A stretch of 64,000 bases of DNA from an uncultured Gemmatimonadales bacterium (GTDB lineage Bacteria; Gemmatimonadota; Gemmatimonadetes; Longimicrobiales; Longimicrobiaceae). Made by a program: the position numbers and the translations under genes. Shown here in pieces: positions 24,895 through 53,900 of the stretch. The notes beneath the pieces are model-generated. The model was not told the DNA's origin and did no database searches. It worked only from the letters and a program-made list of their open reading frames with translations. The stretch is from positions 576,001 to 640,000 of the forward strand of contig OY970303.1 in assembly GCA_963716255.1 (NCBI GenBank), written 5' to 3'. How positions within the stretch are numbered: position 1 is the stretch's first letter; every line of letters starts with the position of its first letter.

Positions 24895-25047
24895 GCGGTA
24901 CCCATAAAAATCTGTTCGGAGGGAGACAGCCGGGCTGTTTCGGCTGGCTCACTCCGGCGCAGGGAGACAGGCCGGCTGTTTGGCCTGGCTCCCGGAGCCC
25001 GCGCAGGAGACGGACGGCTGTATCGTCCGGCTCCGGAGCGGCCCGCC
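24895..25047 (+). repeat. Structured repeat family 2 (three-hairpin element), copy a
   Basis: Three GGAGAC-stem-GGCWGTWT-stem-GGCTC modules joined by GCGCA/GGAGC linkers. Confidence 0.85.
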
Positions 25048-25057
25048 AAACCAGACG

Positions 25058-25846
25058 TCAACCCGCGGTGATGTTGAACCCGGCGTCCACGTACATGACC
25101 TCCCCGGTGATGCCGGTGGAAAGGTCGGAGGCGAGGAAGAGCGCCGTGTTGCCCACCTCGTCCACCTCGATGGCGCGCTTCATGGGCGCCCGCTCGGCGG
25201 TGATCTTGAGCAGGTCGCGGAAGTGCGCCACCCCGCGCGCCGCCAGCGTGTTCACGGCCCCGGCGGAGACCGCGTTGATGCGGATTCCCTTCGCGCCCAG
25301 GTCCACGGCCAGGTAGCGCACGCTGGCTTCCAGCGAGGCCTTTGCGACGCCCATGACGTTGTAGCCGGGGACCGCCTTCTCGGAGCCGTAGTAGGTCATG
25401 GTGACCACGCTGCCGCCGGCCTCCATCAGGGGCTCGGCGGCGCGCACCATCCCCACCAGCGAGTACGCGCTGATGTCGTGCGCGGTGAGGAAATCCTCGC
25501 GCCGGGTCTGGATGAACGGGTTCGCCATGGCGTCCTTGGGCGCGAAGGCGACGGAGTGGAGGAGAAAGTCCAGCCGCCCCCACTTCTCGCGCAGCTCGGC
25601 GAAGAGCCGGTCGATCTGCGCGTCGTCGCGGACGTCCAGGTCGTAGAGCGGGACGTCGCCCAGCGGCGAGACGGTCTTTGCGCACCGGTCGCGCATGGTC
25701 TCGCCCTGGTACGTGAACGCCAGCTCCATCCCCGCGCCGTGCAGCGCCCTGGCGCACGCCCAGGCGATGGAGTTCTGGTTGGCGACGCCGACGATGAGTC
25801 CGCGTTTGCCGGCGAGAAGGCCGGAGATTGCGCTGGCTTCGGACAT
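25058..25846 (-). CDS. fabI: Enoyl-ACP reductase
   Basis: GVANQNSIAW, HSVAFA, YNVMGVAKASLE, VDAG. Confidence 0.95.
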   Translation of the reverse strand: MSEASAISGLLAGKRGLIVGVANQNSIAWACARALHGAGMELAFTYQGETMRDRCAKTVSPLGDVPLYDLDVRDDAQIDRLFAELREKWGRLDFLLHSVAFAPKDAMANPFIQTRREDFLTAHDISAYSLVGMVRAAEPLMEAGGSVVTMTYYGSEKAVPGYNVMGVAKASLEASVRYLAVDLGAKGIRINAVSAGAVNTLAARGVAHFRDLLKITAERAPMKRAIEVDEVGNTALFLASDLSTGITGEVMYVDAGFNITAG

Positions 25847-25903
25847 GGGCTCTTTACGTTCGAGGTCGAGGTTCGCGAAGTCGTCCCGGCCGGTTCACGC
25901 CGC

Positions 25904-27055
25904 TCAGGGGCGCCGGCCCGCGGTGGAGTCGGCGGGCGCGGCGGGGCGCGCGGGCGCCGGGGCGGCGGCCGGGGTCTTCCCCCGCGCCTCGCCCCCGCCC
26001 ACCAGCCCCGCCAGGTTGCGCACGCCGGTGACCCGCACCGTGTACTCGGTGCCGGGCGGCACGGGCCGCGCCAGCCGCACGCGAATGGTCTGCGACGGGA
26101 GCCGCTCCTGCGGCGCGGCCGGGGCCGCGGGCGCGGCGGCGCTGTCGGAGGGCGCGGGCTGGCCGCCCACGGGCGGGCCGCCGCCCTCGCCGCCGGCGCC
26201 CAGCTCCACGGCGACCGCCTGGATGGGGGTGCTGTCGGCCAGCACGACGCGCACCTGGGTGGGCGCGAACGCCTGCAGCGGGTCCAGGTAGTCGTCGAAC
26301 TTGACCTCGATCCAGGCGCTGTCGGCGGGCTGGACGGAGGCGGCGCGCGGCGCGGTGCTGTCCGGCTCCAGCACGCGGAGCCGCACCGTGGGGGAGGCGC
26401 CCGCGGCGACCGTCGCGCCCGCGGTGTCGCGCGGCTCGTAGTCCTGGAGTTCGCGGTCGGCGTTCTGGTCGCGGAAGGCGCGCACCCGGTACCGCCCGGC
26501 GGGGATCTGCGAAAAGGTGAAGGCGCCGGCGGAGTCGGTCTGCACCGAGTACACCAGCGAGTCGGGGGCCAGCGCCGCTTCCACGCGCGTGCCCACCTCC
26601 GGGCGGCCGGTGGTGCGGGCGGTCACCGTGCCGGAGAGCCGCGTGTCGGGGATCTCGGGCCCGGTGGAGAACACCAGCCGCACCGGCTCGGTGCGCCGGT
26701 TGTTGAACAGGTCCTGGACGCCGGGGGCGACCGTCACCTGGTAGATGCGCCCGGCCTCCCATCCGCGCCGCAGCGACACGCGGATCTCGTCGCCCCGGTG
26801 GTCCACTTCGGCGGCGCTGGTGCGCGGCGACACGCTCACGGCGTCGCGGACGCTCTGCTCGGACAGGCGCTCGTCGAACAGCAGGACGACGGGGTCGCTG
26901 AACGCCCCGCCGCGCCGCAGGGTGTCCGGGCGGGTGGCGAGGAGCTGCGGCGCCTGCCTGTCCTCGGGCCCGCCCGGAGGCGGCTCGATGTGCGCGCAGG
27001 CGGCCAGCGGCAGGAGCAGGAGCGCGGCGCGGGCGGCGCGGAGGCTCAGACCCAC
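25904..27055 (-). CDS. Lipoprotein with Ig-like (Big_5) and carboxypeptidase-regulatory-like domains
   Basis: LAAC lipobox, then AHIEPPPGGPED; beta-rich; GTG start overlaps the valS end (start approximate). Confidence 0.75.
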   Translation of the reverse strand: MGLSLRAARAALLLLPLAACAHIEPPPGGPEDRQAPQLLATRPDTLRRGGAFSDPVVLLFDERLSEQSVRDAVSVSPRTSAAEVDHRGDEIRVSLRRGWEAGRIYQVTVAPGVQDLFNNRRTEPVRLVFSTGPEIPDTRLSGTVTARTTGRPEVGTRVEAALAPDSLVYSVQTDSAGAFTFSQIPAGRYRVRAFRDQNADRELQDYEPRDTAGATVAAGASPTVRLRVLEPDSTAPRAASVQPADSAWIEVKFDDYLDPLQAFAPTQVRVVLADSTPIQAVAVELGAGGEGGGPPVGGQPAPSDSAAAPAAPAAPQERLPSQTIRVRLARPVPPGTEYTVRVTGVRNLAGLVGGGEARGKTPAAAPAPARPAAPADSTAGRRP

Positions 27056-29775
27056 GCGGCGCCCTCCAGCCCGGCGAGCTTGTCCGCCAGCTTGCCGCGC
27101 TGCTCGGTGTACCCGGCCAGCTTCTCGCGCTCCTTGTCCACCACGGCGGCGGGGGCGCGCGCCACGAAGCTCTCGTTGGACAGCTTCTTCCCGGTGCCGG
27201 CGATCAGCCCGTCCAGGCGCTGCACCTCGTCGCGCAGGCGGGTGCGCTCGCGGTCCACGTCGATGGCGCCGGAGAGCGGGACGAAGATCTCGGCGCTGGA
27301 GCGGAGCACGGCGGTCGCGCCCACGCCCTCGCCCGCCCCCTCGAAGCCCAGGTCCTCCATGCGGCACAGGTCGCGCAGGGCGCGCACGCTCGCCTCCAGG
27401 TCGGCGCGCAGCTCGGGCGGGGCGCCCGCCACGCGCAGCGGCACCCGGTTCCCCGGCGGCACGCCGTACTCCGCGCGGATGTTGCGCACCGCCACGATCA
27501 CCGCCTGCAGTTCGGCGAAGCGCGCCTCCACGCCGGCGTCCTCCCACGCGGGGACGCGCTCGGGCCAGCGCGCCGTCATCAGCGACCCGGGGTCGCCGGG
27601 GGCCCGCGGCAGGCGCTGCCACACCGTCTCGGTGATGAAGGGCATGGTGGGGTGCAGAAGGCGCATGGCGCCGTCCAGCACGGCGGCCAGCGTGGCGCGC
27701 GCGGCGTCGCGGCTGGCCTCGCCCATCTCGCCGCGCAGGCGGGGCTTCACCAGCTCCAGGTACCAGTCGGCCAGCTCGCCGCGGAAGAACTCGTAGGCGC
27801 GCAGCACCGCCTCGTTGAGCCGGAACTTCTCCATCGCCTGGGTGGTCTCGTCCGCGGCGCGCGACAGCCGCGACAGGATCCAGCGGTCGGGGAGCTCCAG
27901 CGCGCCGGCCACGGCGTCCAGCGGCACCCGCTCGGCGTCGCCCAGCGTCATCAGCGCGAAGCGGCCGGCGTTCCAAAGCTTGTTGGCGAAGTTGCGCCCC
28001 GGGCCGAACGCCTCCTCCAGGTCCTCGTAGTTGAGCCCCTGGTCGGTGCCGGCGGCGCCCCCGGTGAGCACGGTGTAGCGCAGCGCGTCGGCGCCGAAGC
28101 GGTCCACCACCTCCAGCGGGTCGATGCCGTTGCCCAGCGACTTGGACATCTTGCGCCCCATGTGGTCGCGCACGATGCCGGTGAGGTACACGTCGCGGAA
28201 GGGCACGTCGCCCATGAACTCAAGCCCCGCCATGATCATCCGCGAGATCCAGAAGAACAGGATGTCGTGCCCGGAGACCAGGGTGTCGTTGGGGTAGAAC
28301 TTGCGCAGGTGCGGCGTGTCGTCCGGCCACCCCAGCGTGGAAAAGGGCCACAGCCACGACGAGAACCAGGTGTCCAGCACGTCGGGGTCCTGCTCGGGCG
28401 ACGCGGCGCCGCACCGGGGGCACCCGGTGGGGTCCTCGCGCGAAACGATGGTCTCACCGCACCCCTCGGCGCGGCAGTACCACACCGGGATGCGGTGTCC
28501 CCACCAGAGCTGCCGCGAGATGCACCAGTCGCGGATGTTCTCCAGCCAGTGCTCGTAGATCCTGGTGAAGCGCTCCGGCGTGAACCTCACCCGACCGTCG
28601 CGCGACGCGGCCAGCGCCGGCTCGGCGAGCGGCTTCATCTTCACGAACCACTGCTCGGAAAGGCGCGGCTCCACCACCGTGTCGCATCGGTAGCAGTGCG
28701 GCACGGCGTGGGTGTGCGCCTCCACCTTGTCCAGCAGCCCCAGCGCCTCGAAAGCCTGCACCACGGCGCCGCGCGCCTCGGTGCGGTCCATCCCGCGGAA
28801 CGCCTCGGGGGCGTTGTCGTTGACCACCGCCCCGGGCGTGAACACGTCGATGGCGGGAATGCCGTTCCGCTGCGCCATCTCGAAGTCGTTGGGGTCGTGC
28901 GCGGGGGTGATCTTCACCGCGCCGCTCCCGAACTCCGGGTCCACGAAGTCGTCCGCCACGATGGGGATGGTGCGCCCGGTGAGCGGCAGCTCCACCAGGA
29001 GCCCGTGCAGCCCGGCGTAGCGCTCGTCTCCCGGGTGCACCGCCACGGCGGTGTCGCCCAGCATGGTCTCCGGACGGGTGGTGGCCACCACCAGGTAGGG
29101 GCGCCCGTCGGGGAGCCGCGGGAGCCCCGGTGCGTCGGCGCCGGCGGCGAGCGGGTAGCGCAGGTGGTACAGCTTCCCCTGCGTCTCCTCGGGCTCGGCC
29201 TCCTCGTCGGACAGGGCGGTGAGGCAGCGGGGGCACCAGTTGATGATGCGGTTGCCGCGGTACACCAGCCCCTTGTCGTACAGCCGCACGAACACCTCGC
29301 GCACCGCGCGCGAAAGCCCGTCGTCCAGGGTGAAGCGGGTGCGCTCCCAGTCGCACGAGCAGCCCATGGCGCGGAGCTGGTCGATGATGGTGCCCTCCGT
29401 CTTCCCCACGAAGTCCCACACGCGCCCCACGAACGCCTCGCGCCCCAGGTCCTGGCGGGTCTTCCCCTCCCCGGCGAGGACGCGCTCCACCACGTTCTGC
29501 GTGGCGATGCCGGCGTGGTCGGTCCCCGGCTGCCAGAGCGTGGCGCGCCCCTGCATCCGCCGCCAGCGGACGAGCATGTCCTGCACGGAGTTGTTCAGCC
29601 CGTGCCCCATGTGCAGGGGGGCGGTGACGTTGGGCGGGGGGATGACGATGGTGTACGGCTCCGCCTCCGACTCCGGGTCGGCGCGGAAGAGGCCCTGCTC
29701 CTCCCACCAGCGGTAGAGGGGCGCCTCGTTGTCCTGCGGCGAGTACTGAGGGGCAAGCGGCTCGGACTCGGACAT
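27046..29775 (-). CDS. valS: Valine--tRNA ligase
   Basis: PPPNVT, HMGH, DHAGIATQ, DWCISRQLWWGH, KMSKS, C-terminal coiled coil. Confidence 0.97.
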   Translation of the reverse strand: MSESEPLAPQYSPQDNEAPLYRWWEEQGLFRADPESEAEPYTIVIPPPNVTAPLHMGHGLNNSVQDMLVRWRRMQGRATLWQPGTDHAGIATQNVVERVLAGEGKTRQDLGREAFVGRVWDFVGKTEGTIIDQLRAMGCSCDWERTRFTLDDGLSRAVREVFVRLYDKGLVYRGNRIINWCPRCLTALSDEEAEPEETQGKLYHLRYPLAAGADAPGLPRLPDGRPYLVVATTRPETMLGDTAVAVHPGDERYAGLHGLLVELPLTGRTIPIVADDFVDPEFGSGAVKITPAHDPNDFEMAQRNGIPAIDVFTPGAVVNDNAPEAFRGMDRTEARGAVVQAFEALGLLDKVEAHTHAVPHCYRCDTVVEPRLSEQWFVKMKPLAEPALAASRDGRVRFTPERFTRIYEHWLENIRDWCISRQLWWGHRIPVWYCRAEGCGETIVSREDPTGCPRCGAASPEQDPDVLDTWFSSWLWPFSTLGWPDDTPHLRKFYPNDTLVSGHDILFFWISRMIMAGLEFMGDVPFRDVYLTGIVRDHMGRKMSKSLGNGIDPLEVVDRFGADALRYTVLTGGAAGTDQGLNYEDLEEAFGPGRNFANKLWNAGRFALMTLGDAERVPLDAVAGALELPDRWILSRLSRAADETTQAMEKFRLNEAVLRAYEFFRGELADWYLELVKPRLRGEMGEASRDAARATLAAVLDGAMRLLHPTMPFITETVWQRLPRAPGDPGSLMTARWPERVPAWEDAGVEARFAELQAVIVAVRNIRAEYGVPPGNRVPLRVAGAPPELRADLEASVRALRDLCRMEDLGFEGAGEGVGATAVLRSSAEIFVPLSGAIDVDRERTRLRDEVQRLDGLIAGTGKKLSNESFVARAPAAVVDKEREKLAGYTEQRGKLADKLAGLEGAAWV

Positions 29776-29936
29776 CTGGACCGGCTCCTGTCTATGCGAA
29801 CGGGGCCGTGGGGCCCCGCGTCTCTGACTGGCAAATCTGGCTGTGCTTCCCAATCCGAAAGCTACGGAGGGGGGGAAGGGCGGTCAAGCGAAGACGTGGC
29901 GGCTCGCGGAGGATTGCGGCGAAAAGCGTTACGAGC

Positions 29937-30069
29937 GGGTCCGGGCGTGCCCCCGCTGGCGCGGGGTCGGGCTTCGGCTCCGTAGAGCAGCAGACTACGC
30001 TGCTCAACGGAGTCGAGCCCCGCGAAACTGCCCGCGGGTCTCGCCCCTTCGGGCCGAAATCCCTCACGC
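29937..30069 (-). repeat. Structured repeat family 1, copy E
   Basis: Stem gagcagc-agactac-gctgctc; terminal hairpin one bp shorter on both arms. Confidence 0.9.
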
Positions 30070-30253
30070 GGCTCTCGCGCTGGCGTCCGCGAGTGCGGGC
30101 CCCCTCACCCCCCGGCCCCCTCTCCCCCGCAAGCGGGGAAAGGGGGAGCACTGCACGGGGTCGTCCGGCCCTGCGCCTGGACTCGGCGGAGCGCGGTGGG
30201 TCGGCGGGCCGGTCGCAGAGGGCCGAATCCGCCCGGCTTGCACGGGATCCAGC

Positions 30254-30661
30254 TCACAGGCTGAGCTGTTCCGGCTCCCGTCCCGGCCCGTCGCCGGCAC
30301 CCGGCTCGTCCGGGAGCTGGCCGCGCAGCCAGCGCTCCATCGCCGCGAGCACGTGCCGCGTCTCCTCGTCGGTGAGCGCGCGCCCCTTCGGGATGCCGTG
30401 CCACTTCCGGAGGCAGCCGCGGCAGCAGGTGCCGGTGGCGTGCTGCGCCACGAACGCCGGGTGACTGCGCATGGGCGTCTGCCTGCCGTCGTTGGCCGGC
30501 TCCGCGACGGCCAGCCGCGCGGCGACGAACCCCGCCGCGTGTTCCATCACCGCGGCGACGCCGCGCCCACGCAGGTAAGCCAGCTCCGGCCCGCGCAGCC
30601 GGAACCGCCGCCGGAAGTCGGACCTGGAGAGTGCGGCGAAGAGATCGTCGAGGTCGCGCAT
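30254..30661 (-). CDS. DUF4186 family protein
   Basis: FRRRFRL, NDGRQTP, HPAFVAQHATGTCCRGCL.KWH. Confidence 0.88.
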   Translation of the reverse strand: MRDLDDLFAALSRSDFRRRFRLRGPELAYLRGRGVAAVMEHAAGFVAARLAVAEPANDGRQTPMRSHPAFVAQHATGTCCRGCLRKWHGIPKGRALTDEETRHVLAAMERWLRGQLPDEPGAGDGPGREPEQLSL

Positions 30662-30706
30662 GGAAGCCGAGGCGCTGAGCCGTTGTCGTTGCAGTTGCAG
30701 TTCCCC

Positions 30707-30858
30707 ACAGTTCCCAAAATCCGTACGGGGGGAGACTCGCCGGCTGTTTGGCGAGGCTCCCCCCGTGCGCAGGGAGACCCGGAGGCAGTTTTCCGGGGCT
30801 CCCGGAGCCCGCGCAGGAAACAGGCCGGAAGTTTGGCCTGGTTCCGGAGCGGCCCGCC
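30707..30858 (+). repeat. Structured repeat family 2, copy b
   Basis: Three hairpin modules, same linkers. Confidence 0.85.
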
Positions 30859-30884
30859 AAACCCGACGAAGCGGCAAGAACCGT

Positions 30885-31967
30885 CTACTCGCCCCCCGGA
30901 TACGAGCGCAGCGTCGGCGCAGCGGGATCCTCCGGGAACCCCTTGGCCAGCGCCCGCCGGAACGCCGCCACCACCTCCGGATCGAACTGCGACCCCGAGC
31001 ACCGCTCGATCTCCGCGAGCGCCACGTCCGGCGAACGTCCCGCACGGTACGGCCGCGACGAGACGATGGCGTCGAAAGTGTCCACCACGGCGATGATCCG
31101 TCCCTGGAGCGAGATCTCCTCGCCGCGCAGCCCGGCCGGGTACCCCGTGCCGTCCCAGCGCTCCTGGTGGTGCAGGACCGCCGGGAGCGCCGGCTGGAGG
31201 AACGCGCTCCGCGACATGATGGCCGCCCCGATCTCGGGGTGCCGCTTCATCACCTCGTACTCGTCGTCGGTGAGGCGCGCGGGCTTGCGCAGGATGTCGT
31301 CCGGCACCGCGATCTTGCCGATGTCGTGCAGCAGCGCCCCCACCCAAAGGTGCCGCAGCTCTTCCCCGGCGATCCCCATCTCGCGCCCGGTGGCGACGGC
31401 GCGCCGTGCCACCCGCCCCACGTGGTTGCCGGTGTAGTCGTCGCGCGCCTCCACGGCGTTTGCGAGCGAGAGGAGCGCGTCCACGAACAGGTCCTCCAGC
31501 TCGCGCGCCTGCTCGGCGACCCGGTCCTCCAGGTGCTGCTGGTAGAAGCGGTTCTCCCGCACCAGCGCGCGGTGCCGCAGCGCCCGCTCCACGGCGAGCG
31601 TCACCTCCTCCAGGTTGAAGGGCTTGAGGAGGTAGTCGTCGGCCTGGAGCCGCAGGGCGTGGATGGCGTTCTCCATGCTCCCGGCGCCGGTGAGGAGGAT
31701 GAAGGCCACCGTGTCGTCGCGCGCCTTGCAGCGCTGCAGCAGCTCCAGCCCGCCGATGCCGGGCATCTGCAGGTCGGAAAGGATCAGGTCGGCGCCCTCG
31801 GCGGCGAACACCGCTTCGGCCTCTTCGCCGCTGGTGGCCTCCCGCAGGTCGTACCCCGCCGCGAGGACGCGCAGCAGGACCCGGCGGATCGCCGGGTCGT
31901 CGTCCACCACCAAGACGCGCGGCGGCGTCCCGCTCCCGGTCGCCGGCGGAAAGGCGGCAGCCCTCAC
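30885..31967 (-). CDS. Response regulator with HD-GYP phosphodiesterase domain
   Basis: VLVVDDD, SDLQMP, LHDIGK, HHQERWDGTGYP; GTGA overlap with the upstream gene. Confidence 0.92.
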   Translation of the reverse strand: MRAAAFPPATGSGTPPRVLVVDDDPAIRRVLLRVLAAGYDLREATSGEEAEAVFAAEGADLILSDLQMPGIGGLELLQRCKARDDTVAFILLTGAGSMENAIHALRLQADDYLLKPFNLEEVTLAVERALRHRALVRENRFYQQHLEDRVAEQARELEDLFVDALLSLANAVEARDDYTGNHVGRVARRAVATGREMGIAGEELRHLWVGALLHDIGKIAVPDDILRKPARLTDDEYEVMKRHPEIGAAIMSRSAFLQPALPAVLHHQERWDGTGYPAGLRGEEISLQGRIIAVVDTFDAIVSSRPYRAGRSPDVALAEIERCSGSQFDPEVVAAFRRALAKGFPEDPAAPTLRSYPGGE

Positions 31968-32662
31968 CGCTGCGCCCCGGCCTGCGCCGCGCCGGGCTCC
32001 ACCGCGAAGCCGCCCAGCTGCAGCTGCACCTGGTGGGCGATGCGCACGCCGGGGATGCCGGCGGCGTCCACCTCGGAGGCGCCCACGCGCGCCACCTGTT
32101 TTCCGTTGACCAGGAAGCTGACCGAATCCGCCGCCACGCGGACCTCCAGTTCGTTGGGGCGCCCACCCTCCTCGGTGTCGCGGCGGATGGCGGGGTCGGT
32201 GGTCCAGGGGCGCACCACGGGGATGTCGGCGCCGGAGCGGCGGCGGATGAGGAAGCTGCCGTCGCCGCGCACCAGGAAGTAGCTGTAGCGCTGCCCGGAC
32301 TCGGGCGCGTCCAGCGACGCCCCGCCCCAGACGATGCCGTACCCCTCGTGGAGGCGCCCGTGCAGCTTCTGCATGCGCGCCCGGATGGTGTACGGGGGCC
32401 GCACCGGCGCCTGCCCCTGCCGCCAGAGCACGACGTGGGGGCCGGTCTCCACCGTCAGCGCCTCGCCGCCGCGCAGCGTCACGCCCTCGCGCGGGGCGAG
32501 CTGCCACGCCGCGGGAGACGCCACGGAGTCGGCCGGGGCGGGAGCGGCGGCGGGGGCCGCGGCGGTGTCGGCGCGTGGCTCCCGGGCGTCCGTGCGCGGG
32601 CGGTCGGCGCCGCACGCCGCGAGAAGGGCGGCGGCGGCCAGGAGGGGGAGCGTGGCTCTCAT
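31964..32662 (-). CDS. Hypothetical lipoprotein (beta-sandwich-like)
   Basis: MRATLPLLAAAALLAAC lipobox. Confidence 0.7.
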   Translation of the reverse strand: MRATLPLLAAAALLAACGADRPRTDAREPRADTAAAPAAAPAPADSVASPAAWQLAPREGVTLRGGEALTVETGPHVVLWRQGQAPVRPPYTIRARMQKLHGRLHEGYGIVWGGASLDAPESGQRYSYFLVRGDGSFLIRRRSGADIPVVRPWTTDPAIRRDTEEGGRPNELEVRVAADSVSFLVNGKQVARVGASEVDAAGIPGVRIAHQVQLQLGGFAVEPGAAQAGAQR

Positions 32663-32667
32663 GGCGA

Positions 32668-33189
32668 TCAGGGTTGCAGGGACTTCCGCAGCTCGTCCAG
32701 CGGGAGGTCGCGGATGCGCACCTCCAGCGGCACCACCAGCTCGTCCTGCGTCTGGGTGCGGAGCCGGAAGGTGTGGCGGATGTGGAGCGGGACCACGGTG
32801 CGGATGGGAACCGTGGTCTTGATGGGGAGGGTCACCTGGTGCGTCCCGAACGGCGAGCGGAAGGGGACGCGCACCTGGGTGTCGATGGGGAGCTGCGTGT
32901 TCAGGTCCACGCGCAGCCGCTCGTCCACCGGGATGTCCAGCCGCAGCGGGGTCCCCGCCGCGAGCCGGATGCGGTACTGCACCCGGGCGTCCTCCTCCGC
33001 CAGCCGGTCCAGCGCCCGCAGCGCCGTCCCCACCGCGCGGCTTTCCGCGCCGCGCAGCCACCACAGGAGGTACAGGTTGGCTCCCAGCGCGACCGCCGCG
33101 ACGACCAGGGCGGCGAGCGCGATCCCCGCCGCTCGCTCCCGCGCCGCCCGCATCAGCCCGCCCGCGCGGCCGGACGCTTCACCGTTCAC
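32668..33189 (-). CDS. Hypothetical single-TM protein
   Basis: GGAGG RBS with GTG start, one TM helix, repetitive beta-rich C-terminus. Confidence 0.65.
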   Translation of the reverse strand: MNGEASGRAGGLMRAARERAAGIALAALVVAAVALGANLYLLWWLRGAESRAVGTALRALDRLAEEDARVQYRIRLAAGTPLRLDIPVDERLRVDLNTQLPIDTQVRVPFRSPFGTHQVTLPIKTTVPIRTVVPLHIRHTFRLRTQTQDELVVPLEVRIRDLPLDELRKSLQP

Positions 33190-33290
33190 CGCATGCCCTC
33201 CTGGGAAATCGCGATTCGCCGCAAGATACAATGAGTCGGGGAGGTTTGGCGACCCCTCATTGCAGATCCGGGTCTCTTTTTACTGCAAGG

Positions 33291-33425
33291 GGGTTCGGGC
33301 GTGCCCCCGGCTGGCGCCGGGGTCGGGCTTCGGCTCCGTAAGCCCGCAAACAACGCGGGCTAACGGAGTCGAGCCCCGGCAAACTGCCGCCGGGTCTCGC
33401 CCCTTCGGGCCGAAATCCCTCACGC
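33291..33425 (-). repeat. Structured repeat family 1, copy F
   Basis: Stem agcccgc-aaacaac-gcgggct. Confidence 0.9.
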
Positions 33426-33580
33426 GGGTATCGCACTGGCGTCCGCGGGGGCCCCCTCCCCAACCCCTCCCCCAATTCCGGGGGAGGGCTTCCTGACCCT
33501 CAACTCCGGACGTGTCGTGCTTCCCCTCCCCCCTTGCGGGGGAGGGGGCCAGGGGGAGGGGGGTCGCCGTTGCCGTTCCC

Positions 33581-33731
33581 GCAGTACCCCCCAAATCCGT
33601 TGCGGAGGGAGACAGCCGGCAGTTTGGCTGGCTCCCTCCGGCGCAGGGAGACCCGGAGGCAGGTTTCCGGGGCTCCCGGAGCCCGCGCAGGAGACGGACG
33701 GCAGTATCGTCCGGCTCCGGAGCGGCCCGCC
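33581..33731 (+). repeat. Structured repeat family 2, copy c
   Basis: Three hairpin modules. Confidence 0.85.
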
Positions 33732-33739
33732 ACCACACG

Positions 33740-33770
33740 AAAAAGCCCCGGGGCACACACACCCCGGGGC
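33740..33770 (-). terminator. Intrinsic terminator of etfBA
   Basis: gccccgggg-tgtgtgtg-ccccggggc-ttttt. Confidence 0.7.
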
Positions 33771-33796
33771 CGAACGGCGAATCGGAAGAGAACCCC

Positions 33797-34780
33797 TCAG
33801 TGGACGACCTTGCGGATCTCCTCGGTCAGCCGCGGCAGGATCTGGAACAGGTCCCCCACGATCCCGTAGTCGGCCACCTTGAAGATGGGCGCCTCCGGGT
33901 CCTTGTTGATGGCGACGATGAAGCGCGACGAGCGCATGCCGGCCAGGTGCTGGATCGCGCCGGAGATGCCGACGGCGAAGTACAGCGTGGGCGCGACCGT
34001 CTTGCCCGTCTGCCCCACCTGCTCGGCGTGCGGGCGCCAGCCGGCGTCCACCACCGCGCGCGAGGCCCCCACCGCCGCCTTGCCGTTGAACGCGGCGGCG
34101 AGCTCCTCGAGGAGCTTGAAGTTCTCGGGGCTGCCCATGCCGCGCCCGCCGGACACGATCACCGGGGCCTCGGCCACGTCCAGCGCGCCGCCGGCCGCCG
34201 CGCGGATCTCCCGCACCACCGCGCCGAAGTCGGCGCCGTCCAGCGACACGGCCAGCGTCTCCACCGACCCGCCCCTGGCGTTCTCCTTGGGCGTGAAGGT
34301 GTTGGGGCGCAGCGAGAGCACCGCCGGCCGGTCGGCCACCGTCACCCTGGCGTTCAGCTTGCCGGAGTACAGCGGGCGCGACACGACCAGCTGCCCGCCC
34401 TCGGCGGAGATCGCCGTGACCTCGCTCTGGTACTCCACGCCCAGCCGGGCCGCCACGCGCGGCGCCAGGTCGCGCCCCATGGAGGTCGCGGGGAAGAGCG
34501 CCGCGTCGCAGCCGTGCTCCTTGATGAAGCCGGCGATCACCGCCGTGAACCCCTCGGGCGAGTACCGGTCGAACGCGGCCGATTCGCCCACGAACACCTT
34601 GTCCGCCCCGAAGCGGCCCAGCTCGCCGGCCGCGCCGCCGCTCCCCTCGCCGCCCAGGAGGACGGCATGGACCTCGGTACCCAGCGCGTCGGCCAGGGTG
34701 CGGGCCGCGGTCACCACCTCGTGCGCGACCTTGCGGAGCTCGCCGTCGCGCGCCTCCGCGAACGCGAAAATGCCTGCCAT
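33797..34780 (-). CDS. etfA: Electron transfer flavoprotein alpha subunit
   Basis: [33 protein letters not shown]. Confidence 0.95.
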
Positions 34781-34894
34781 GTATGTGACTCCTCAGTCGG
34801 TGTCGGATTCGGGAGGTCACAGAGAAATGGAAGAGAGAAGAGCCGCCCGGCCGTTGCCGTCGCAGGCTGTTCCCTGTTCCCTCTTCCCTGTTCC

Positions 34895-35647
<753 letters not shown>

Positions 35648-43733: not shown

Positions 43734-43870
43734 GGGCGAATCCCCGGCCGATACTGCCCGGCCGGGGACCGGGCTCTATTCTGCTGGACACGAAACTACC
43801 GTGTCCAGCAGAACGGAGCCGCCGGAAACAGCCCCGGCGTCTCCGCCCTTCGGGTTACGATCCCTTTCGC
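43734..43870 (-). repeat. Divergent family-1 variant (1b), left arm of an inverted pair
   Basis: Reverse strand GCGAAAGGGAT...CCCGAAGGG...GGAGAC-stem-GGCTGTTT...GAGCCCGGTCCCCGG...GGGGATTCGCCC. Confidence 0.8.
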
Positions 43871-43988: not shown

Positions 43989-44124
43989 GCGAAAGCGATC
44001 GTGACCCGAAGGGCGGAGACTCGCCGGCAGTTTGGCGAGGCTCCGTTCTCCTGGACACGGTCGTTTCGTGTCCAGGAGAATAGAGCGCGGTCCCCGGCCG
44101 GCAGTATCGGCCGGGGATTCGCCC
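43989..44124 (+). repeat. Divergent family-1 variant (1b), right arm of an inverted pair
   Basis: GCGAAAGCGAT...CCCGAAGGG...GAGCGCGGTCCCCGG...GGGGATTCGCCC; inverted relative to 43734-43870. Confidence 0.8.
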
Positions 44125-44135
44125 GGATCCCCGTC

Positions 44136-44648: not shown

Positions 44649-44662
44649 GTGCTTGTCTGTCC

Positions 44663-45994: not shown

Positions 45995-46019
45995 CGTTGG
46001 CCTTGCAGGTGGTGTTTGG

Positions 46020-47639: not shown

Positions 47640-47671
47640 CTCGGCCTCCGTGTCGGTTTGGATTCTCGCCG

Positions 47672-48967
<1,296 letters not shown>

Positions 48968-48974
48968 GGCGCCT

Positions 48975-49694
48975 CTACTTCAGTCTTTCGAGAAGGGCCG
49001 GGACGTTTTCCGGCCTCACGTTCTCGAAGTAACGGTCGTTGATCTGCACCGCGGTGGGGAAGCCGCAGGCGCCCAGGCACTCCACCTCCATGACCGTGTA
49101 GAGCCCGTCCGCCGTGGTCTCGCCCACGTCGGCGCCGGTGGCCTGGAGGAAGGCTTCGAGCACGGCGTCGCCGCCGCACAGGTTGCAGGAGATGTTGGTG
49201 CACACCTGGATCAGGTACTTCCCGACCGGGCCCAGGTTGTACATGGTGTAGAAGGTCGCCACCCCGCGCACGTACGCCGGGGAAAGGCCCAGCCGCTCCG
49301 CCACCTCGTCCATGGTTTCGGGCGACAGGAAGCCGCGGATCTCGTGCGCCATGTGCAGCACGGGGAGCAGCGCGGCCTGCGCGTCCGGGTAGCGCTCCAG
49401 GATCTTGCCCACGCGCTCGCCGTACTCGCCCTCGAAGAGCGGGGCCGTGGGGACACTGGTGGACACCTGGTACGGCAGGGTCCCCGCGACCGCCGGGTTG
49501 CCGCCGTGGCGCGGGCGGATGCCCACGTACGCGTTGCCGCGCACGTCCGCCTCGCTGAGGGCGGGGAACTCGCCGGTGTCGCCCGCGAAGCCCGGGTTCT
49601 GCAGGGCCTGCGGCCAGGACGAGGGCGGCGAGTCGAAGCCGCCGTGGCCAGCAGCATTCTGCGCGGCTGCGCCGCTTAGTCCCTGCGGGTTCAT
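48975..49694 (-). CDS. nuoE: NADH-quinone oxidoreductase subunit E
   Basis: VATFY, CTNISC, ECLGAC; ATGA overlap with the nuoD stop. Confidence 0.92.
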   Translation of the reverse strand: MNPQGLSGAAAQNAAGHGGFDSPPSSWPQALQNPGFAGDTGEFPALSEADVRGNAYVGIRPRHGGNPAVAGTLPYQVSTSVPTAPLFEGEYGERVGKILERYPDAQAALLPVLHMAHEIRGFLSPETMDEVAERLGLSPAYVRGVATFYTMYNLGPVGKYLIQVCTNISCNLCGGDAVLEAFLQATGADVGETTADGLYTVMEVECLGACGFPTAVQINDRYFENVRPENVPALLERLK

Positions 49695-50980
49695 CGGTCG
49701 ATCTCCCCGAGGACGATGTCGAGCGACGCGTTCACCGCGATCACGTCCGAGAGGAGCGCCCCCTCGATCATGTGCGGGAGCGCCGCGATGTTGATGAAGG
49801 ACGGGCCGCGCACGCGCCAGCGCACCGGCTTGGCGCCGCCGTCGGAAACCACGTACATCCCCAGCTCGCCCTTGGACGACTCCACCGAGAACCACGACTC
49901 GCCCACCGGGGCGCGGACCCCCTCCATGACCACCTTGAAGTGGTGGATCATGGATTCCATGTCGTTCATCGCCGCCGTCTTGGAGGGCAGGATGACGCGC
50001 GGGTCGTCCACGTTGATGGGGCCGCCGGGGAGCCGGTCGATGGCCTGCTGGAGGATGCGCAGGCTCTGCCGCATCTCCTCCATGCGGCACAGGTAGCGGT
50101 CGTAGATGTCCCCGTGCTCGCCGATGGGGACCTCGAAGTCGTACGTCTCGTAGTCGTAGTACGGGCGGTCCTTGCGGATGTCGTAGTCCACCCCGGAGGC
50201 GCGCAGGTTGGGGCCCGAGAGCCCCCAGTTGACCGCGTCCTCGGCGGAGATGGCGCCCACGCCCTGCGTCCGGCCGATCCAGATGCCGTTGTTGGTGAGC
50301 AGGGTGTCCACCTCCTCGAGCGTGCGCGGGAAGGTGTCCACGAACTCCTGCAGCTTCTCGATCCACCCGGACGGCAGGTCCGCCATCATCCCCCCGATGC
50401 GGGTGGACGAGGTGGTGATGCGCGCGCCGGTGAACGACTCGTGCAGGTCGTAGATGCGCTCGCGCTCCTGGAAGGTGTACAGGAAGACGGTGAACGCTCC
50501 CAGGTCGATCCCCGTGGTCCCCAGCCAGAGCAGGTGCGAGAAGATGCGGTCCAGCTCCATGCAGATGACGCGGACCACCTTGCAGCGCTCGGTGACCGTG
50601 ATCCCCATGAGCTTCTCGACCGCCATGGCGTAGGCGCAGTTGTAGATCAGCGGCGCCAGGTAGTCCATACGGTCGGTGAGGGGGATGATCTGGTTCCAGT
50701 CCCGGTACTCCCCCAGCTTCTCGAACGAGGAGTGCAGGTAGCCGATGTGCGGGATGCACCGCACCACCGTCTCGCCGTCCAGCTCCAGGACCAGGCGGAG
50801 CACCCCGTGGGTGGCGGGGTGCTGCGGCCCGATGTTGATGAGCATGTGCTCGCCCGCGATGTCCTCGTGCACGTGCACCGACTCGCCCTCCAGCGGGACG
50901 ATGGGGGCGTGCACCAGGCTCCCCCCAGCGCTCAGCTCCGGGTTGCGGGTGACGTTGTAAACGACCTTGCGGAGCGCCAT
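49691..50980 (-). CDS. nuoD: NADH-quinone oxidoreductase subunit D
   Basis: GPQHPATHGVLR, DRMDY, GEIDR C-terminus. Confidence 0.97.
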   Translation of the reverse strand: MALRKVVYNVTRNPELSAGGSLVHAPIVPLEGESVHVHEDIAGEHMLINIGPQHPATHGVLRLVLELDGETVVRCIPHIGYLHSSFEKLGEYRDWNQIIPLTDRMDYLAPLIYNCAYAMAVEKLMGITVTERCKVVRVICMELDRIFSHLLWLGTTGIDLGAFTVFLYTFQERERIYDLHESFTGARITTSSTRIGGMMADLPSGWIEKLQEFVDTFPRTLEEVDTLLTNNGIWIGRTQGVGAISAEDAVNWGLSGPNLRASGVDYDIRKDRPYYDYETYDFEVPIGEHGDIYDRYLCRMEEMRQSLRILQQAIDRLPGGPINVDDPRVILPSKTAAMNDMESMIHHFKVVMEGVRAPVGESWFSVESSKGELGMYVVSDGGAKPVRWRVRGPSFINIAALPHMIEGALLSDVIAVNASLDIVLGEIDR

Positions 50981-51711
50981 CAGCCTCCTCCTCCCATGCC
51001 GCCGAACTGCCCGTGCTGCTCGGCGCCCTCGGTCCCGGCGAAGGGGTCGGGCACCGGCTGGTTCAGTGCGTGCGCGATCTGCAGCTCGCGCGGCGAGTAG
51101 TGGTCCTCGGTCTTGAGCGCCAGGGCCCGCCGCGTCTGCTCCGCGCGCGAGAAGCGTCCGCGCAGCGGAAAGTCCTTACGCAGGGGGTGCCCCTCGGCGT
51201 AGTTGTAGGGCATGAGGATGCGCCGCAGGTCCGGGTGCCCGTTGAAGACCACGCCGAACATGTCGAACACCTCGCGCTCCAGCCAGTCGGAGGCGCGCCA
51301 CAGGTGGTAGACGCTGTCGATCTCCAGCGCCTCCAGCGGCACCTCGGCCTTGACCCGCAGGTTCAGCTTGGTCCTGGTGGACCAGAGCTGCCAGACCACC
51401 TGCAGGAAGCGGCCGTTGCCCCAGTCGATGGCCGTGAGGTCCTGGAGGAAGTCGTACTGGTGGCCGGGGGCGTCCTTGAGCCACGCCAGCACTTCGCGCG
51501 CTCGCGCGGGCTGCACGTACACCACGTGCTCGTCGCCCGCGGTGAGCTCGTGCCGCAGCACCGCGTCGCCGAACTCTTCGCGCAGCGCGTCCACGCTGGC
51601 GTGCGGGGGGAGGTCGCCCGCGGGGGGCGGGACGCCCGGCTCCTCGCGCGGGGAGCCCGCGGCGCCCGCGTCCAGCCCTTCCAGGCCCTTCTTGAACGAG
51701 TCGTTCGCCAT
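50980..51711 (-). CDS. nuoC: NADH-quinone oxidoreductase subunit C
   Basis: WLEREVFDMFG, GHPDLRRIL, GHPLRKDFPL. Confidence 0.95.
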   Translation of the reverse strand: MANDSFKKGLEGLDAGAAGSPREEPGVPPPAGDLPPHASVDALREEFGDAVLRHELTAGDEHVVYVQPARAREVLAWLKDAPGHQYDFLQDLTAIDWGNGRFLQVVWQLWSTRTKLNLRVKAEVPLEALEIDSVYHLWRASDWLEREVFDMFGVVFNGHPDLRRILMPYNYAEGHPLRKDFPLRGRFSRAEQTRRALALKTEDHYSPRELQIAHALNQPVPDPFAGTEGAEQHGQFGGMGGGG

Positions 51712-51725
51712 GTTCGTCGGGCGCT

Positions 51726-52421
51726 TCAAGGACGGCGGTCGGCCGGCCGCACGACCGCACCGGTGGACACGAGGCCGCTGGTGCGGTTCTGCCGGGTGGA
51801 GTTGCCGAAGGGCGCGGTGATCCCTTCGATCACCTCGTCCGGGAGCACGGAGTCGGCCAGCGGCAGGGCGTCCACGGTGTTCCACTCGCGCTGCGAGGTG
51901 GGCGCCGAGTTGCGGATCTTCTCCTGCACCATGAGGATGCCGTACATCAGCCCCTCGGGGCGCGGCGGGCACCCGGGGACGTAGACGTCCACGGGGATGA
52001 TGGTGTCGATCCCCTGCACCATGCTGTACACGTCGAAGACGCCGCCCGAGGAGGCGCAGGCGCCCATGGAGATGCACCACTTGGGCTCGGGCATCTGCTC
52101 CCAGATACGCCGCAGCACCGGCGCCATCTTGTAGGAGACGCGCCCGGCGCAGATGAGCAGATCGGCCTGCCGGGGGGAGAAGCTCATGCGCTCCATCCCG
52201 AAGCGGGCCAGGTCGTAGCGGGTGGCGGCGGTGGCCATCATCTCGATGGCGCAGCACGCGGTCCCGAAGGGCATGGGCCAGAGCGAGTTCTGCCGGGCCC
52301 AGTTCACCACCGCGTCCACGCGGGTGGTGAGGAAGCTGGGCGCCCCGGAGAAGATGCCGCCCTGGGGTGCCTCGGACCCGTCCTGGTGGACGGGGAGGCC
52401 GCCGTCGTCGTTCAGTTCCAT
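51726..52421 (-). CDS. nuoB: NADH-quinone oxidoreductase subunit B
   Basis: [26 protein letters not shown]. Confidence 0.95.
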
Positions 52422-52768
52422 TCGAGCGCTCCCTTCTTCCACTCGTAGATCAGCCCCACCGTGAGGATGAAGATGAAGATCCCGGCCGCGGCGAAGCCGT
52501 CCCAGCCCAGGTAGCGCATCTTCACGGCCCAGGGGAGCAGGAAAACGGTCTCCACGTCGAAGACGATGAACAGGATCGCGACCACGTAGAACTTGACCGA
52601 GAACCGCTCCCGCGTGCTCCCGAGCGGGTCCATCCCCGACTCGTAGGGCGACGACTTGACCTTTAGGTACCCGCCCGGGCTCAGCACCTTGGAGAGCACG
52701 ACCATGCCCACCGCCTGCGCGGCGGAAAGGACCAGCATGAGCAGGATCGGCGTGTACGAGCGTAGCAT
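52412..52768 (-). CDS. nuoA: NADH-quinone oxidoreductase subunit A
   Basis: [19 protein letters not shown]. Confidence 0.95.
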
Positions 52769-52799
52769 GGCGCGGTCCGGGTGCCGGGCTTGCGAAAGC

Positions 52800-52817
52800 T
52801 TGTGAAATCGTTCACTT
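52800..52817. promoter_or_regulatory. Putative Rex-type operator upstream of nuoA
   Basis: TTGTGAA-ATCG-TTCACTT versus Rex consensus TTGTGAA-N4-TTCACAA; lies just downstream of the promoter. Confidence 0.55.
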
Positions 52818-52831
52818 GCGAGAGACGGGTC

Positions 52832-52860
52832 AAAATACGGTCCCCGCCACCCGCGGTCAA
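52832..52860 (-). promoter_or_regulatory. Sigma70-type promoter of the nuo operon
   Basis: TTGACC-17 bp-TATTTT. Confidence 0.55.
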
Positions 52861-53019
52861 GGCGAACTCCCCGCCCCCGCGGCCCTTGCCCGGGCGCGGG
52901 GAGCGGCGGTAAGTTGGCGTCTCGGTCCGCCCTCCCTACCCCCGGTCCCGCGGCCCGTTCGTTCGGGGCCTCTTCGGTCCTGCCGGGAACTCCTGGCTCC
53001 GCTTCATTAATCGTTCCAG

Positions 53020-53580
53020 ATGAGCATCAAGCCCGACCACTGGATCCGGACGATGGCCCGCGAGCACGGGATGATCGATCCGTACGAGGACGCCCAGGTG
53101 CGGCGGGGGACGATCTCGTACGGGGTGTCGTCGTACGGCTATGACATGCGGGTGGCGAACGAGTTCAAGATCTTCACCAACGTCAACAACGCCATCGTGG
53201 ATCCCAAGGCGTTCGACGAGAAGTCGTTCGTGAACTTCGAGGGCGAGGTGTGCATCGTCCCGCCCAACTCGTTCGCGCTGGCCCGCTCGGTGGAGTACTT
53301 CCGCATCCCGCGCAACGTGTTCACGCTGTGCGTGGGCAAGAGCACCTATGCGCGCTGCGGGATCATCACCAACGTCACGCCCTTCGAGCCGGAATGGGAG
53401 GGCTACGTGACGCTGGAGATCTCCAACACCACGCCGCTCCCCGCGCGGGTGTACGCCAACGAGGGGATCGCGCAGGTGATCTTCTTCGAGGCCGGCCCCG
53501 GGGACATCTGCGAGGTGAGCTACGGGGATCGCAAGGGCAAGTACCAGGGCCAGGTCGGCGTCACCACGCCGCGCCTGTAG
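53020..53580 (+). CDS. dcd: dCTP deaminase
   Basis: [39 protein letters not shown]. Confidence 0.95.
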
Positions 53581-53750
53581 GCGGCTCGATAAATCGCCCA
53601 GCTCTGCGTTGCCCTGCGGGCGGCTCCCTGCGACGTACATGAAGTACGTCTCGGTCGCCGTCCTCGGGCGCCTTGATCTGCACGATTTCTCTTCGCCTCA
53701 CCCGGTGAGGCAGTGAACGGCCGGAAGGCCCGGCAGTCCGTTGTAGTTCC

Positions 53751-53900
53751 GCAGTACCCACATAATCCGTTGCGGAGGGAGACAGCCGGCAGTTTGGCTG
53801 GCTCACTCCGGCGCAGGGAGACTCGCCGGCTGTTTGGCGAGGCTCCCGGAGCCCGCGTAGGAAACAGGCCGGCAGTTTGGCCTGGTTCCGGAGCGGCCCC
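53751..53900 (+). repeat. Structured repeat family 2, copy d
   Basis: Three hairpin modules. Confidence 0.85.

What the first reader, a model, noticed from the sequence alone, without database searches (positions are those of the whole stretch)
24895..53900. One conserved 7-nt loop displayed on interchangeable stems across three different repeat architectures
Seen: nearly every variable hairpin in families 1, 1b and 2 carries a loop reading AAACAAC, AAACGAC, AGACTAC, AAACTAC, AAACAGC, AAACTGC, ATACTGC or ATACAGC on one strand (consensus about AWACDRC; GYHGTWT on the other). There are roughly 30 such hairpins in 64 kb, and their stems are unrelated in sequence. The closing motif GAG-A-C...G-G-CTC, with an A/G mismatch, is also shared. 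Inference: a single protein, or a loop-receptor interaction, recognises the loop in single-stranded RNA or DNA. The elements would then be multivalent scaffolds (2-3 loops each), analogous in logic to GGA loops in CsrB/RsmZ or hairpin recognition by HUH transposases. No cognate protein is evident in the window.
Basis: partly seen in the sequence, partly recalled or inferred. Interest (0 to 1): 0.78.

Follow-up and report, generated by a model that had tools for sequence, protein, structure and literature searches.

The report
Repeats that swap tagged DNA hairpins
About a thousand folded DNA repeats between the genes of a soil bacterium share one short loop tag and swap whole hairpins with each other in place, which points to an unidentified DNA-processing enzyme rather than an RNA scaffold.

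Summary
The loop is real: 32 hairpins in the window (half 7-nt, half 8-nt) and 1991 genome-wide, against about 17-59 by chance. All positions are fixed except a free fifth base. The stems are a small reused vocabulary, not unrelated sequences. Families 1/1b are Longimicrobiaceae versions of the Flavo-1 scaffold; family 2 is three copies of the same cassette.

New here: (i) at orthologous sites in a relative with 95.5% identical flanks, both inner hairpins are replaced whole (15 of 17 each) while the frame tends to stay; (ii) the same ACNRC word lies, strand-polar, in unpaired leaders and on unrelated BoxC-type repeats, some framing DUF559 nuclease genes; (iii) an IS481-type element at the window's end, and its MITE, insert at one base of family 1 (8 of 8), on the A/G mismatch.

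GNA/GNNA loops and no sense bias in family 1 favour single-stranded DNA over a CsrB-like RNA. Best reading: DNA repeats whose tagged hairpins are cut and recopied from other copies. The enzyme was not found. The scan had noted these families elsewhere in this genome, and Flavo-1 repeats in other genomes.

The parts
24915..25043 (-). Family 2 element, three cassettes (strand given = strand reading AAAC)
   Evidence: present with different cassettes at the orthologous site in G001, G008, G005 and absent in G002
24820..24856 (+). GGGAACAG-type heptamer array ending in AACGGC/AACAGC words, next to the family 2 trailer
29943..30069 (+). Family 1 element: Flavo-1-type frame with two tagged hairpins; followed by a BoxC-like hairpin at about 30104-30149
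   Evidence: both hairpins and P1 differ at the orthologous site in G001
30724..30854 (-). Family 2 element; linear AACTGC/AACGAC words trail it at about 30680-30712
33297..33425 (+). Family 1 element; absent at this site in G008
33454..33546 (.). Two BoxC/TM-like hairpins between the family 1 and family 2 copies
33600..33727 (-). Family 2 element
43734..43870 (+). Family 1b element (P1 arm replaced by a tagged hairpin); first of an inverted pair between the nuoJ and nuoI genes
   Evidence: pair present in G001, G006, G008, cut at the first loop in G002, site empty in G005
43989..44124 (-). Family 1b element, second of the inverted pair
53770..53898 (-). Family 2 element
5386..5518 (-). Family 1 element, outside the finding's coordinates (ends approximate)
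6550..6680 (-). Family 1 element
8820..8949 (+). Family 1 element
21517..21649 (+). Family 1 element
56414..56557 (-). Family 1 element whose second loop is replaced by an extra hairpin tip; that tip is found on 5 different stems in 10 copies
58547..58672 (+). Family 1 element
63607..63707 (+). Family 1 element split by an IS insertion at the foot of the second hairpin; the rest lies beyond the window
63708..64000 (-). Start of a 1327-bp IS481-type element with a 3-bp target duplication; transposase on the minus strand, stop codon at 63798-63800, continues past the window end

Best explanation
These are non-autonomous intergenic DNA repeats that work like REP/BIME elements. Families 1/1b are the Longimicrobiaceae form of the Flavo-1 scaffold; family 2 is a run of three copies of the same inner cassette. 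They fold when single-stranded, mainly on the strand reading GYNGT. The ACNRC/GYNGT word is a strand-polar tag shown in unpaired places (loop tips, leaders, hairpin feet) and read by a trans-acting DNA-processing enzyme encoded elsewhere. A nick or break at a tagged tip is repaired by copying from another copy, so both arms of that hairpin are replaced together while the surrounding frame tends to stay. SHOWN: copy number, covarying fold, tag conservation on unrelated scaffolds, replacement of whole hairpins in place, and site-specific IS481 insertion at the A/G mismatch. INFERRED: DNA rather than RNA, a tag-reading enzyme, cutting at the loop, and DUF559 as a candidate. The IS481 element is a parasite that reads the junction, not the loop.
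For: Whole-hairpin replacement at orthologous sites: first hairpin 15 of 17, second 15 of 17, P1 7 of 17, outer stem 1 of 17 in G001 (flanks 95.5% identical); 12, 12, 7 and 6 of 12 in G008. Random-draw identity would be 0.11, 0.065, 0.30 and 0.79; P1 is kept more often than random, p=0.016. A rare scaffold variant (57 of 698) is kept at 3 of 3 G001 sites while the hairpin inside it changes. Modules are in linkage equilibrium (Cramer V equal to permuted; 547 haplotypes in 619 copies), but the two arms of a hairpin are linked (V 0.97). Only 2 of 698 first-hairpin hybrids join alleles that differ at 2 or more sites, and 3 of 697 second-hairpin hybrids were found. One hairpin tip sits on 5 different stems. 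The tag is strand-polar outside loops: AACGGC 343 vs 3 and AACTGC 167 vs 4 in family-1 leaders, 441 vs 8 in family-2 trailers, and 219 vs 25 of 445 BoxC-like feet against 8.7% background. In genus g14 the loop sits on BoxC-type hairpins (48-145 copies in 4 of 8 genomes, fifth base free) where the GAGCC cassette is absent. 5 of 26 DUF559 loci have such loop-bearing hairpins beside the gene and 10 have the word at a gene-facing foot. On the GYNGT strand the other loops are GAA 565, GGA 73, GCA 7 and GCCA 461, GCA 92, GTCA 24, GACA 19, with only 4 GNRA; these are the GNA/GNNA mini-hairpin loops of DNA (abstract of PMC13037366). That strand folds lower in 120 of 120 copies with DNA parameters. 13 of 43 consensus pairs show double changes.
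Against: No enzyme was identified. Y1 and Y2 transposases were not found in G000. G000's own DUF559 gene is framed by hairpins without the tag, and DUF559 also occurs in family members that lack the cassettes. The same strand also folds lower as RNA (117 of 120), and the opposite strand carries cUUCGg/cUCCGg loops and G-T-closed alleles, so strand and polymer are not proven. Family 2 is biased: AAAC strand sense in 80 vs 46 tandem pairs (p=0.003) and leading-strand in 137 of 213 (p=3.5e-5). P1 and tail also change in 7 and 9 of 17 pairs, so conversion is not limited to tagged hairpins. Intramolecular repair of quasi-palindromes could keep arms matched with no loop reader. One IS target has a mutated loop.
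Confidence: 0.45

Rival explanations
1. No loop reader. One ancestral cassette spread through all families, ordinary gene conversion among about 1000 copies shuffles modules, and template switching in palindromes keeps the arms matched. The loop looks conserved only through concerted evolution, and its fifth base is an old polymorphism or a mutation hot spot.
For: The scaffold is as invariant as the loop. P1 and tail also convert. Many stem alleles are one step apart. The g14 BoxC tip equals a family-1 allele, so it could be a captured cassette. No cognate gene was found.
Against: The same fixed and free positions hold in two differently closed loops (AAACNAC, AAACNGCC), in linear leaders and at BoxC feet, all strand-polar. 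The word survives in genera whose scaffold is only about 77% identical. Tracts can end within a few bases of a hairpin.
Confidence: 0.3
2. The elements are RNAs or mRNA 3' elements that present 2-3 loops to an RNA-binding protein, as CsrB/RsmZ present GGA loops, or that stabilise or terminate transcripts.
For: Elements crowd gene 3' ends: 268 convergent vs 39 divergent sites, against a background of 489 vs 653; 468 of 771 start within 80 nt of a stop codon. Family 2 has a sense bias. RNA folding is strong on both strands (z -3.2 to -7.8). Flavo-1 was proposed as an RNA (PMC2864571, Table 1).
Against: Family 1 has no sense bias (241 vs 219). No CsrA. Loops are GNYA rather than GNRA. Flavo-1 hits in Flavobacterium lie sense or antisense to transcripts, and many lie outside them (passage of PMC9723704). 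The tag also sits on BoxC, and PMC4666352 notes that purine-motif triplexes, the class proposed for BoxC, cannot form in RNA (passages).
Confidence: 0.13
3. The elements are mobilised by a RAYT or IS200-type HUH transposase that has been lost from or is too divergent in this lineage; the tag is its guide or cleavage word.
For: REP-like anatomy: imperfect stems with a conserved mismatch, a short tag, strand asymmetry (compare passages of PMC8266576). Presence/absence at orthologous sites. A Flavo-1 frame or half-frame lies within about 250 nt of a RAYT-like frame at 3 of 50 loci (L271, L317, L319).
Against: Y1_Tnp was found in 1 of 9 genus genomes, as an IS200-like element with its own ends, and Y2 in 1 of 9 with no repeat nearby, yet exchange is ongoing. 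The L271 RAYT has its own REP hairpins. Two of the three loci come from one genome, and 3 of 50 is not clearly above chance.
Confidence: 0.12

Closest known systems
Flavo-1 motif (Rfam RF01705; Weinberg et al. 2010, PMC2864571)
   Same: Family 1 has the same ends (GGGCGT, hairpin, GGGTCGGGCT ... ATCCCT[AC]ACGC), read on the opposite strand, including the outer GGG-A-T/A-G-CCC stem. 12 of 20 pattern-defined loci hit RF01705 at E<=0.01, 6 of them at or above the gathering score. Many copies, intergenic, either orientation.
   Different: The window copies do not score against RF01705. The interior is a multi-way junction with two tagged hairpins. Both loops carry the tag in all 10 Longimicrobiaceae/Gemmatimonadota-labelled loci, while the word appears anywhere in only 6 of 110 others. 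771 copies in this genome.
REP/BIME/REPIN with TnpA-REP (RAYT)
   Same: High-copy intergenic hairpin repeats at gene 3' ends, mosaic, strand-asymmetric with a conserved mismatch and a short tag; targeted by insertion sequences. Loop bases are read in group 3 REPtrons (passages of PMC8266576).
   Different: No GTAG-type tag at the stem foot, no RAYT in the genome, 130-nt branched fold, tag in loops and leaders, hairpins exchanged as units.
REP-targeting insertion sequences (IS1397, ISKpn1, IS621, ISPpu9/10; Tobes and Pareja 2006, PMC1525189)
   Same: An IS that inserts only into one base of a repeat family: 4 of 4 full copies and 4 of 4 MITE copies in G000, and 5 more loci elsewhere.
   Different: IS481-type; that paper names IS3, IS110, IS4, IS256 and IS5 and has 0 occurrences of IS481 in its main text. 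The 3-bp duplication is centred on the A of the A/G mismatch. More distant relatives sit at BoxC-like ends (4 loci) or heptamer arrays (4 loci).
BoxC / PIT / TM repeats (Holder et al. 2015, PMC4666352) framing DUF559 genes
   Same: A separate co-resident family, often directly downstream of family 1, that frames DUF559 genes in inverted orientation and carries the same word at its foot or loop in this lineage.
   Different: Not homologous in scaffold. The E. coli ycjD locus shows BoxC-like hairpins without an obvious tagged loop.
CsrB/RsmZ small RNAs
   Same: Several copies of a short word shown in hairpin loops.
   Different: About 1000 copies, no CsrA, no promoter found, no sense bias in family 1.

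Membership tests
Flavo-1 (RF01705) | Score at or above the Rfam gathering threshold | tested here: not met
   No hit in the window; no Flavo-1 hit at E<=10 in 29800-33900; L007 and L013 do not hit
Flavo-1 (RF01705) | Conserved ends and outer stem (GCGUGA-GGGAU ... AGCCCGACC) | tested here: met
   Same words in seed rows of the paper's supplement and in Rfam-positive loci; outer pair T-A/G-C double change in 6 of 19 aligned copies
Flavo-1 (RF01705) | Single inner hairpin, Bacteroidetes host | tested here: not met
   Branched interior; named records with the same element are labelled Longimicrobiaceae/Gemmatimonadota
REP/BIME with RAYT | High-copy intergenic imperfect palindromes at gene 3' ends, both orientations | tested here: met
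REP/BIME with RAYT | Conserved GTAG-type tetranucleotide at the 5' foot of the stem | tested here: not met
   GTAG/GTAA varies with the stem allele of the first hairpin and is absent from the other cassettes
REP/BIME with RAYT | Y1 transposase gene flanked by inverted copies | tested here: not met
   0 in G000, 1 of 9 in the genus with unrelated ends; 113 inverted pairs in G000 inspected by eye enclosed no recognisable transposase (not Pfam-scanned)
REP/BIME with RAYT | Strand-specific cleavage of the single-stranded repeat | not testable with these tools
   needs a biochemical assay
CsrB/RsmZ | CsrA/RsmA in the genome | tested here: not met
   0 hits in a genome 96.7% complete; control rings in 3 of 14
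CsrB/RsmZ | Stand-alone transcript with its own promoter and GGA loops | tested here: inconclusive
   No sigma-70-like site in 29700-34000; GGA in only 73 tail loops; no stranded reads available
Classical MITE | Terminal inverted repeats and target-site duplication | tested here: inconclusive
   Only a 5-bp terminal pairing; most differing sites are internal deletions or unalignable, one clean empty site
IS481 family (element at 63708) | Transposase profile score | tested here: inconclusive
   NF033577 best match, E 1e-63, 215.4 bits against a cut-off of 224
IS481 family (element at 63708) | Imperfect inverted ends and a short target duplication | tested here: met
   1327 bp, imperfect inverted ends (TG at one, GG at the other), 3-bp duplication in 4 of 4 copies

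The most novel reading that the evidence does not exclude
A tag-directed hairpin-exchange system. A nuclease (candidate: a DUF559/Vsr-like enzyme, whose genes in a sister genus are framed by hairpins with the identical loop) cuts single-stranded DNA at ACNRC-tagged tips at about 2000 sites per chromosome. Repair from ectopic copies replaces the hairpin as a unit, and unrelated repeat families (Flavo-1 frame, family 2, BoxC) have all adopted the tag to use the same machinery. This would also make Flavo-1 a DNA element and give BoxC and Flavo-1 a shared partner.
Probability: 0.2. Interest if true: 0.82.

Novelty: new variant of a known kind. Interest (0 to 1): 0.6.

Why it matters
Flavo-1 has been an orphan motif since 2010 and BoxC since the 1990s. 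How REP-like repeats spread and stay uniform without a neighbouring transposase is also open. This lineage gives a direct test: a defined tag with one free base, a measurable in-place exchange of hairpins, a candidate nuclease family, and an IS481-type transposase with single-base specificity for a folded repeat. The latter is a safe-harbour targeting mode not listed for IS481 in the one survey checked. If the tag is neutral, the result is still a clear case of module-level concerted evolution in a bacterium.

Tried and rejected
Rfam on the window: nothing. Y1_Tnp, Y2_Tnp, 23S-IVP four-helix bundle and CsrA were not found in G000. GIY-YIG gave 2 hits in long frames (397 and 1240 aa), taken as host repair genes and not followed. 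The single reverse transcriptase has no element in its 3.6-kb locus. An IS91-like GTTC target was considered: it precedes only 344 of 771 copies and no Y2 enzyme is present. The two copies in G019 flank housekeeping genes, not a cognate gene. Genes next to 70 non-Gemmatimonadota Flavo-1-type loci looked like housekeeping genes by eye (not Pfam-scanned). 14 of 40 viral matches carry the frame, none with the tag; for the 9 whose neighbours were listed, no transposase was evident. The 7 viral matches to the cassette pattern were not hairpins. RAYT as partner of Flavo-1 (lead e1-4915724): 3 of 50 loci, inconclusive. Replication-strand bias of family 1: 363 of 771, p=0.11. Neighbouring copies do not share alleles more than random. 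Expression: only contigs were available. In one metatranscriptome the element-to-gene depth ratio was about 250, against about 500-2000 in three DNA runs, which gives no sign of an abundant RNA but is not evidence either way. Literature searches that found no description of these elements: (uninformative). No structure or complex prediction was run. Papers seen: PMC2864571 (passages, supplement hits), PMC9723704, PMC4666352, PMC1525189, PMC8266576 (passages), PMC13037366 (abstract and outline); all others as search listings only. The paper's own text on Flavo-1 in its supplements was not located and may bear on the RNA-or-DNA question. The description of CsrB/RsmZ, GNRA/UNCG RNA loops, IS91 targets, the Vsr-like fold of DUF559 and IS3/IS481 ends is recalled, not from a call.
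Full report
1. Observation. The loop exists and is far above chance. Among 7-nt loops closed by at least 6 Watson-Crick pairs, AAACAAC (507) and AAACGAC (123) lead the genome; among 8-nt loops AAACTGCC (435) and AAACAGCC (386) lead. The window holds 32 such hairpins, 16 with 7-nt and 16 with 8-nt loops, 20 of them inside the finding's coordinates. The 8.42-Mb, 73% GC genome holds 1991 with stems of at least 6 bp, against 4-14 per 2 Mb in Markov controls. 2044 of 2101 are intergenic by my own gene calls. Scanning the cassette with no loop constraint gives the word in 949 of 962 cases on 48 stems, with every position fixed except the fifth. The stems are not unrelated: about a dozen alleles dominate and 9 of 21 window stems recur.

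2. Anatomy. Family 1 has 771 full copies of about 129 nt, family 1b has 8 and family 2 about 213. Read on the GYNGT strand, family 1 folds into a closing stem, a junction carrying a small P1 hairpin, and an inner junction with a GNA hairpin and the two tagged hairpins. 13 of 43 pairs show double changes in 19 aligned copies, which are related and not independent. Family 2 is three copies of the second cassette. Part of the sharing among architectures is therefore homology, although allele spectra stay mostly family-specific. The same frame occurs in 14 of 40 viral matches. The window copies themselves do not score against RF01705. All 10 Longimicrobiaceae/Gemmatimonadota-labelled loci carry the tag in both loops; the word occurs anywhere in 6 of 110 others. 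Phage copies keep the GAGCC..GAGTCTC stem with a different loop. The closure is thus older and wider than the tag. The host lineage is inferred from these labelled records.

3. The tag is not a loop-only feature. AACGGC and AACTGC occur 343 and 167 times in family-1 leaders on the AAAC strand and 3 and 4 times on the other. They are not over-represented in other intergenic DNA and peak about 10 and 20 nt upstream. Family-2 trailers show 441 vs 8. A co-resident BoxC/TM-like family has ACNRC at its 3' foot in 219 of 445 oriented copies, the reverse word in 25, against 8.7% background. In genus g14 the GAGCC cassette is absent (0 of 8 genomes), but the AAACNGC loop caps BoxC-type hairpins at 145, 60, 55 and 48 copies in four genomes, again with a free fifth base. 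These BoxC-type hairpins frame DUF559 genes. Of 26 loci shown, 5 have a tagged loop beside the gene and 10 have the word at a gene-facing foot; G000's own DUF559 locus has neither.

4. Hairpins are exchanged in place. Across 619 main-type copies, P1, hairpin 1, hairpin 2 and tail are in linkage equilibrium (547 haplotypes), but the arms of hairpin 1 are linked at V=0.97 and 631 of 698 stems are perfect. Of 12 apparent hybrids only 2 join alleles differing at 2 or more sites; hairpin 2 has 3 hybrids in 697. At orthologous sites (17 of 19 shared single copies parsed in G001, 12 of 14 in G008) hairpin 1 and hairpin 2 each differ in 15 of 17 and 12 of 12, which is saturation. P1 differs in 7 of 17 and the outer stem in 1 of 17, with P1 kept more often than random (p=0.016). 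A rare scaffold variant survives at 3 of 3 G001 sites while the hairpin inside changes; the marker between the two hairpins is kept in 3 of 4 comparisons. Family 2 behaves alike. An extra tip hairpin rides on 5 different stems. Gains and losses also occur, often as internal deletions that leave P1, with one clean empty site and one opposite-orientation pair.

5. DNA or RNA. Elements crowd gene 3' ends (268 convergent, 39 divergent), but family 1 shows no sense preference (241 vs 219) and no replication bias. On the GYNGT strand the untagged loops are GNA and GNNA with almost no GNRA, matching DNA mini-hairpins (abstract of PMC13037366); the variant scaffold contains GCGAAGC itself. Against this, RNA folding favours the same strand, the other strand has UNCG loops and G-T-closed alleles, and family 2 is biased to sense (80 vs 46) and leading strand (137 of 213). 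No CsrA and no promoter-like site were found. A transcriptome study found Flavo-1 hits sense, antisense and outside transcripts (passage of PMC9723704).

6. A protein that does read family 1. The element at 63708 is a 1327-bp IS481-type sequence (215 bits, just under the cut-off). All 4 copies, and all 4 copies of a 297-bp MITE with the same ends, sit at the same base of family 1 with a 3-bp duplication centred on the A of the A/G mismatch. Five of 23 homologous loci elsewhere, at 54-95% identity, are at the same site (for one, only one end was in view). Four more distant ones abut BoxC-like ends and four abut heptamer arrays. The site is fixed relative to the junction, not the loop; stems differ among targets, one target has a mutated loop, and none is in family 2 (chance about 0.01). 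It is a repeat-targeting parasite like IS1397 or IS621 (passages of PMC1525189), not the loop reader, and 4 copies cannot explain exchange at about 2000 hairpins.

7. Mechanism and rivals. The simplest account of arms that travel together, neighbouring hairpins that do not, and a frame that tends to stay, is conversion that starts at the tip: a nick or break at the tag, loss of both arms, and copying from another copy (inferred; 0.45). The neutral rival, general conversion plus palindrome self-repair, explains the linkage but less well the same fixed and free bases on unrelated scaffolds (0.3). An RNA role (0.13) and a lost HUH transposase (0.12) remain. No Y1 or Y2 enzyme is in G000, and RAYT adjacency to Flavo-1 frames is inconclusive (3 of 50 loci).

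8. Novelty and score. The scaffold belongs to a known, unexplained kind, and the scan had already described these families in this genome (e1-2561953, e1-2561954), Flavo-1 repeats with a shuffled arm (e1-4625496) and DUF559-BoxC framing (e1-4057948). In the notes I saw, the link of family 1 to Flavo-1, the measured in-place exchange, the tag shared with BoxC and the single-base IS481 targeting were not stated, and searches found no paper on them. Verdict: new variant of a known kind, interest 0.6.

Noticed in passing
window 63708-64000; G000:C1 639708-641034, 4403782, 4250341, 3218996; MITE at 443472-443768 and near 1743128, 3578252, 4484783: IS481-type element and a 297-bp MITE that insert only at one base of family 1; relatives insert at BoxC-like ends or heptamer arrays, suggesting a clade of repeat-homing IS481 elements.
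   Followed up: yes
L001 (G000:C1 125233-125544) and L284-L312: DUF559 genes framed by inverted BoxC-like hairpins. Several genus members carry the gene at the same chromosomal site, but with quite different protein sequences and hairpin subtypes, as if the cassette is replaced repeatedly.
   Followed up: partly
window 13006-20379 (-): Very long protein (about 2458 aa) with 14 tandem 276-bp repeats, resembling a poly-HAMP hybrid sensor kinase next to CheR/CheB-like genes.
   Followed up: no
window 24820-24856, 34860-34897; G021 loci L013-L019: Heptamer arrays (GGGAACAG type; CACTCACG type in g14) next to the elements; no four-helix-bundle gene found in G000.
   Followed up: partly
window 30254-30661 (-): Small gene that looks like DUF4186 (recalled label; no NCBIfam hit) between a family 1 and a family 2 copy; the neighbouring family 2 copy persists in G008, G002 and G005.
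   Followed up: partly
window 58820-58960 and many family-1 downstream flanks: A further repeated element containing TTCGAAGCCAGCGTGATC and CCCCCGGCCGACCCC motifs recurs downstream of family 1/BoxC clusters; not characterised.
   Followed up: no
L021, L024, L025, L026, L046 (viral contigs): Single Flavo-1-type frames in phages, with the same GAGCC..GAGTCT stem but untagged loops, between genes of unknown function.
   Followed up: partly
L003 (G019:C208): Only 8 cassette matches in G019 and near-identical family 1 copies on one contig; may be a mis-binned contig.
   Followed up: no
L271 (1221-2078): A RAYT with its own REP hairpins sits right after a Flavo-1 frame, and the frame's 3' end is repeated after the unit, like a target duplication.
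   Followed up: partly
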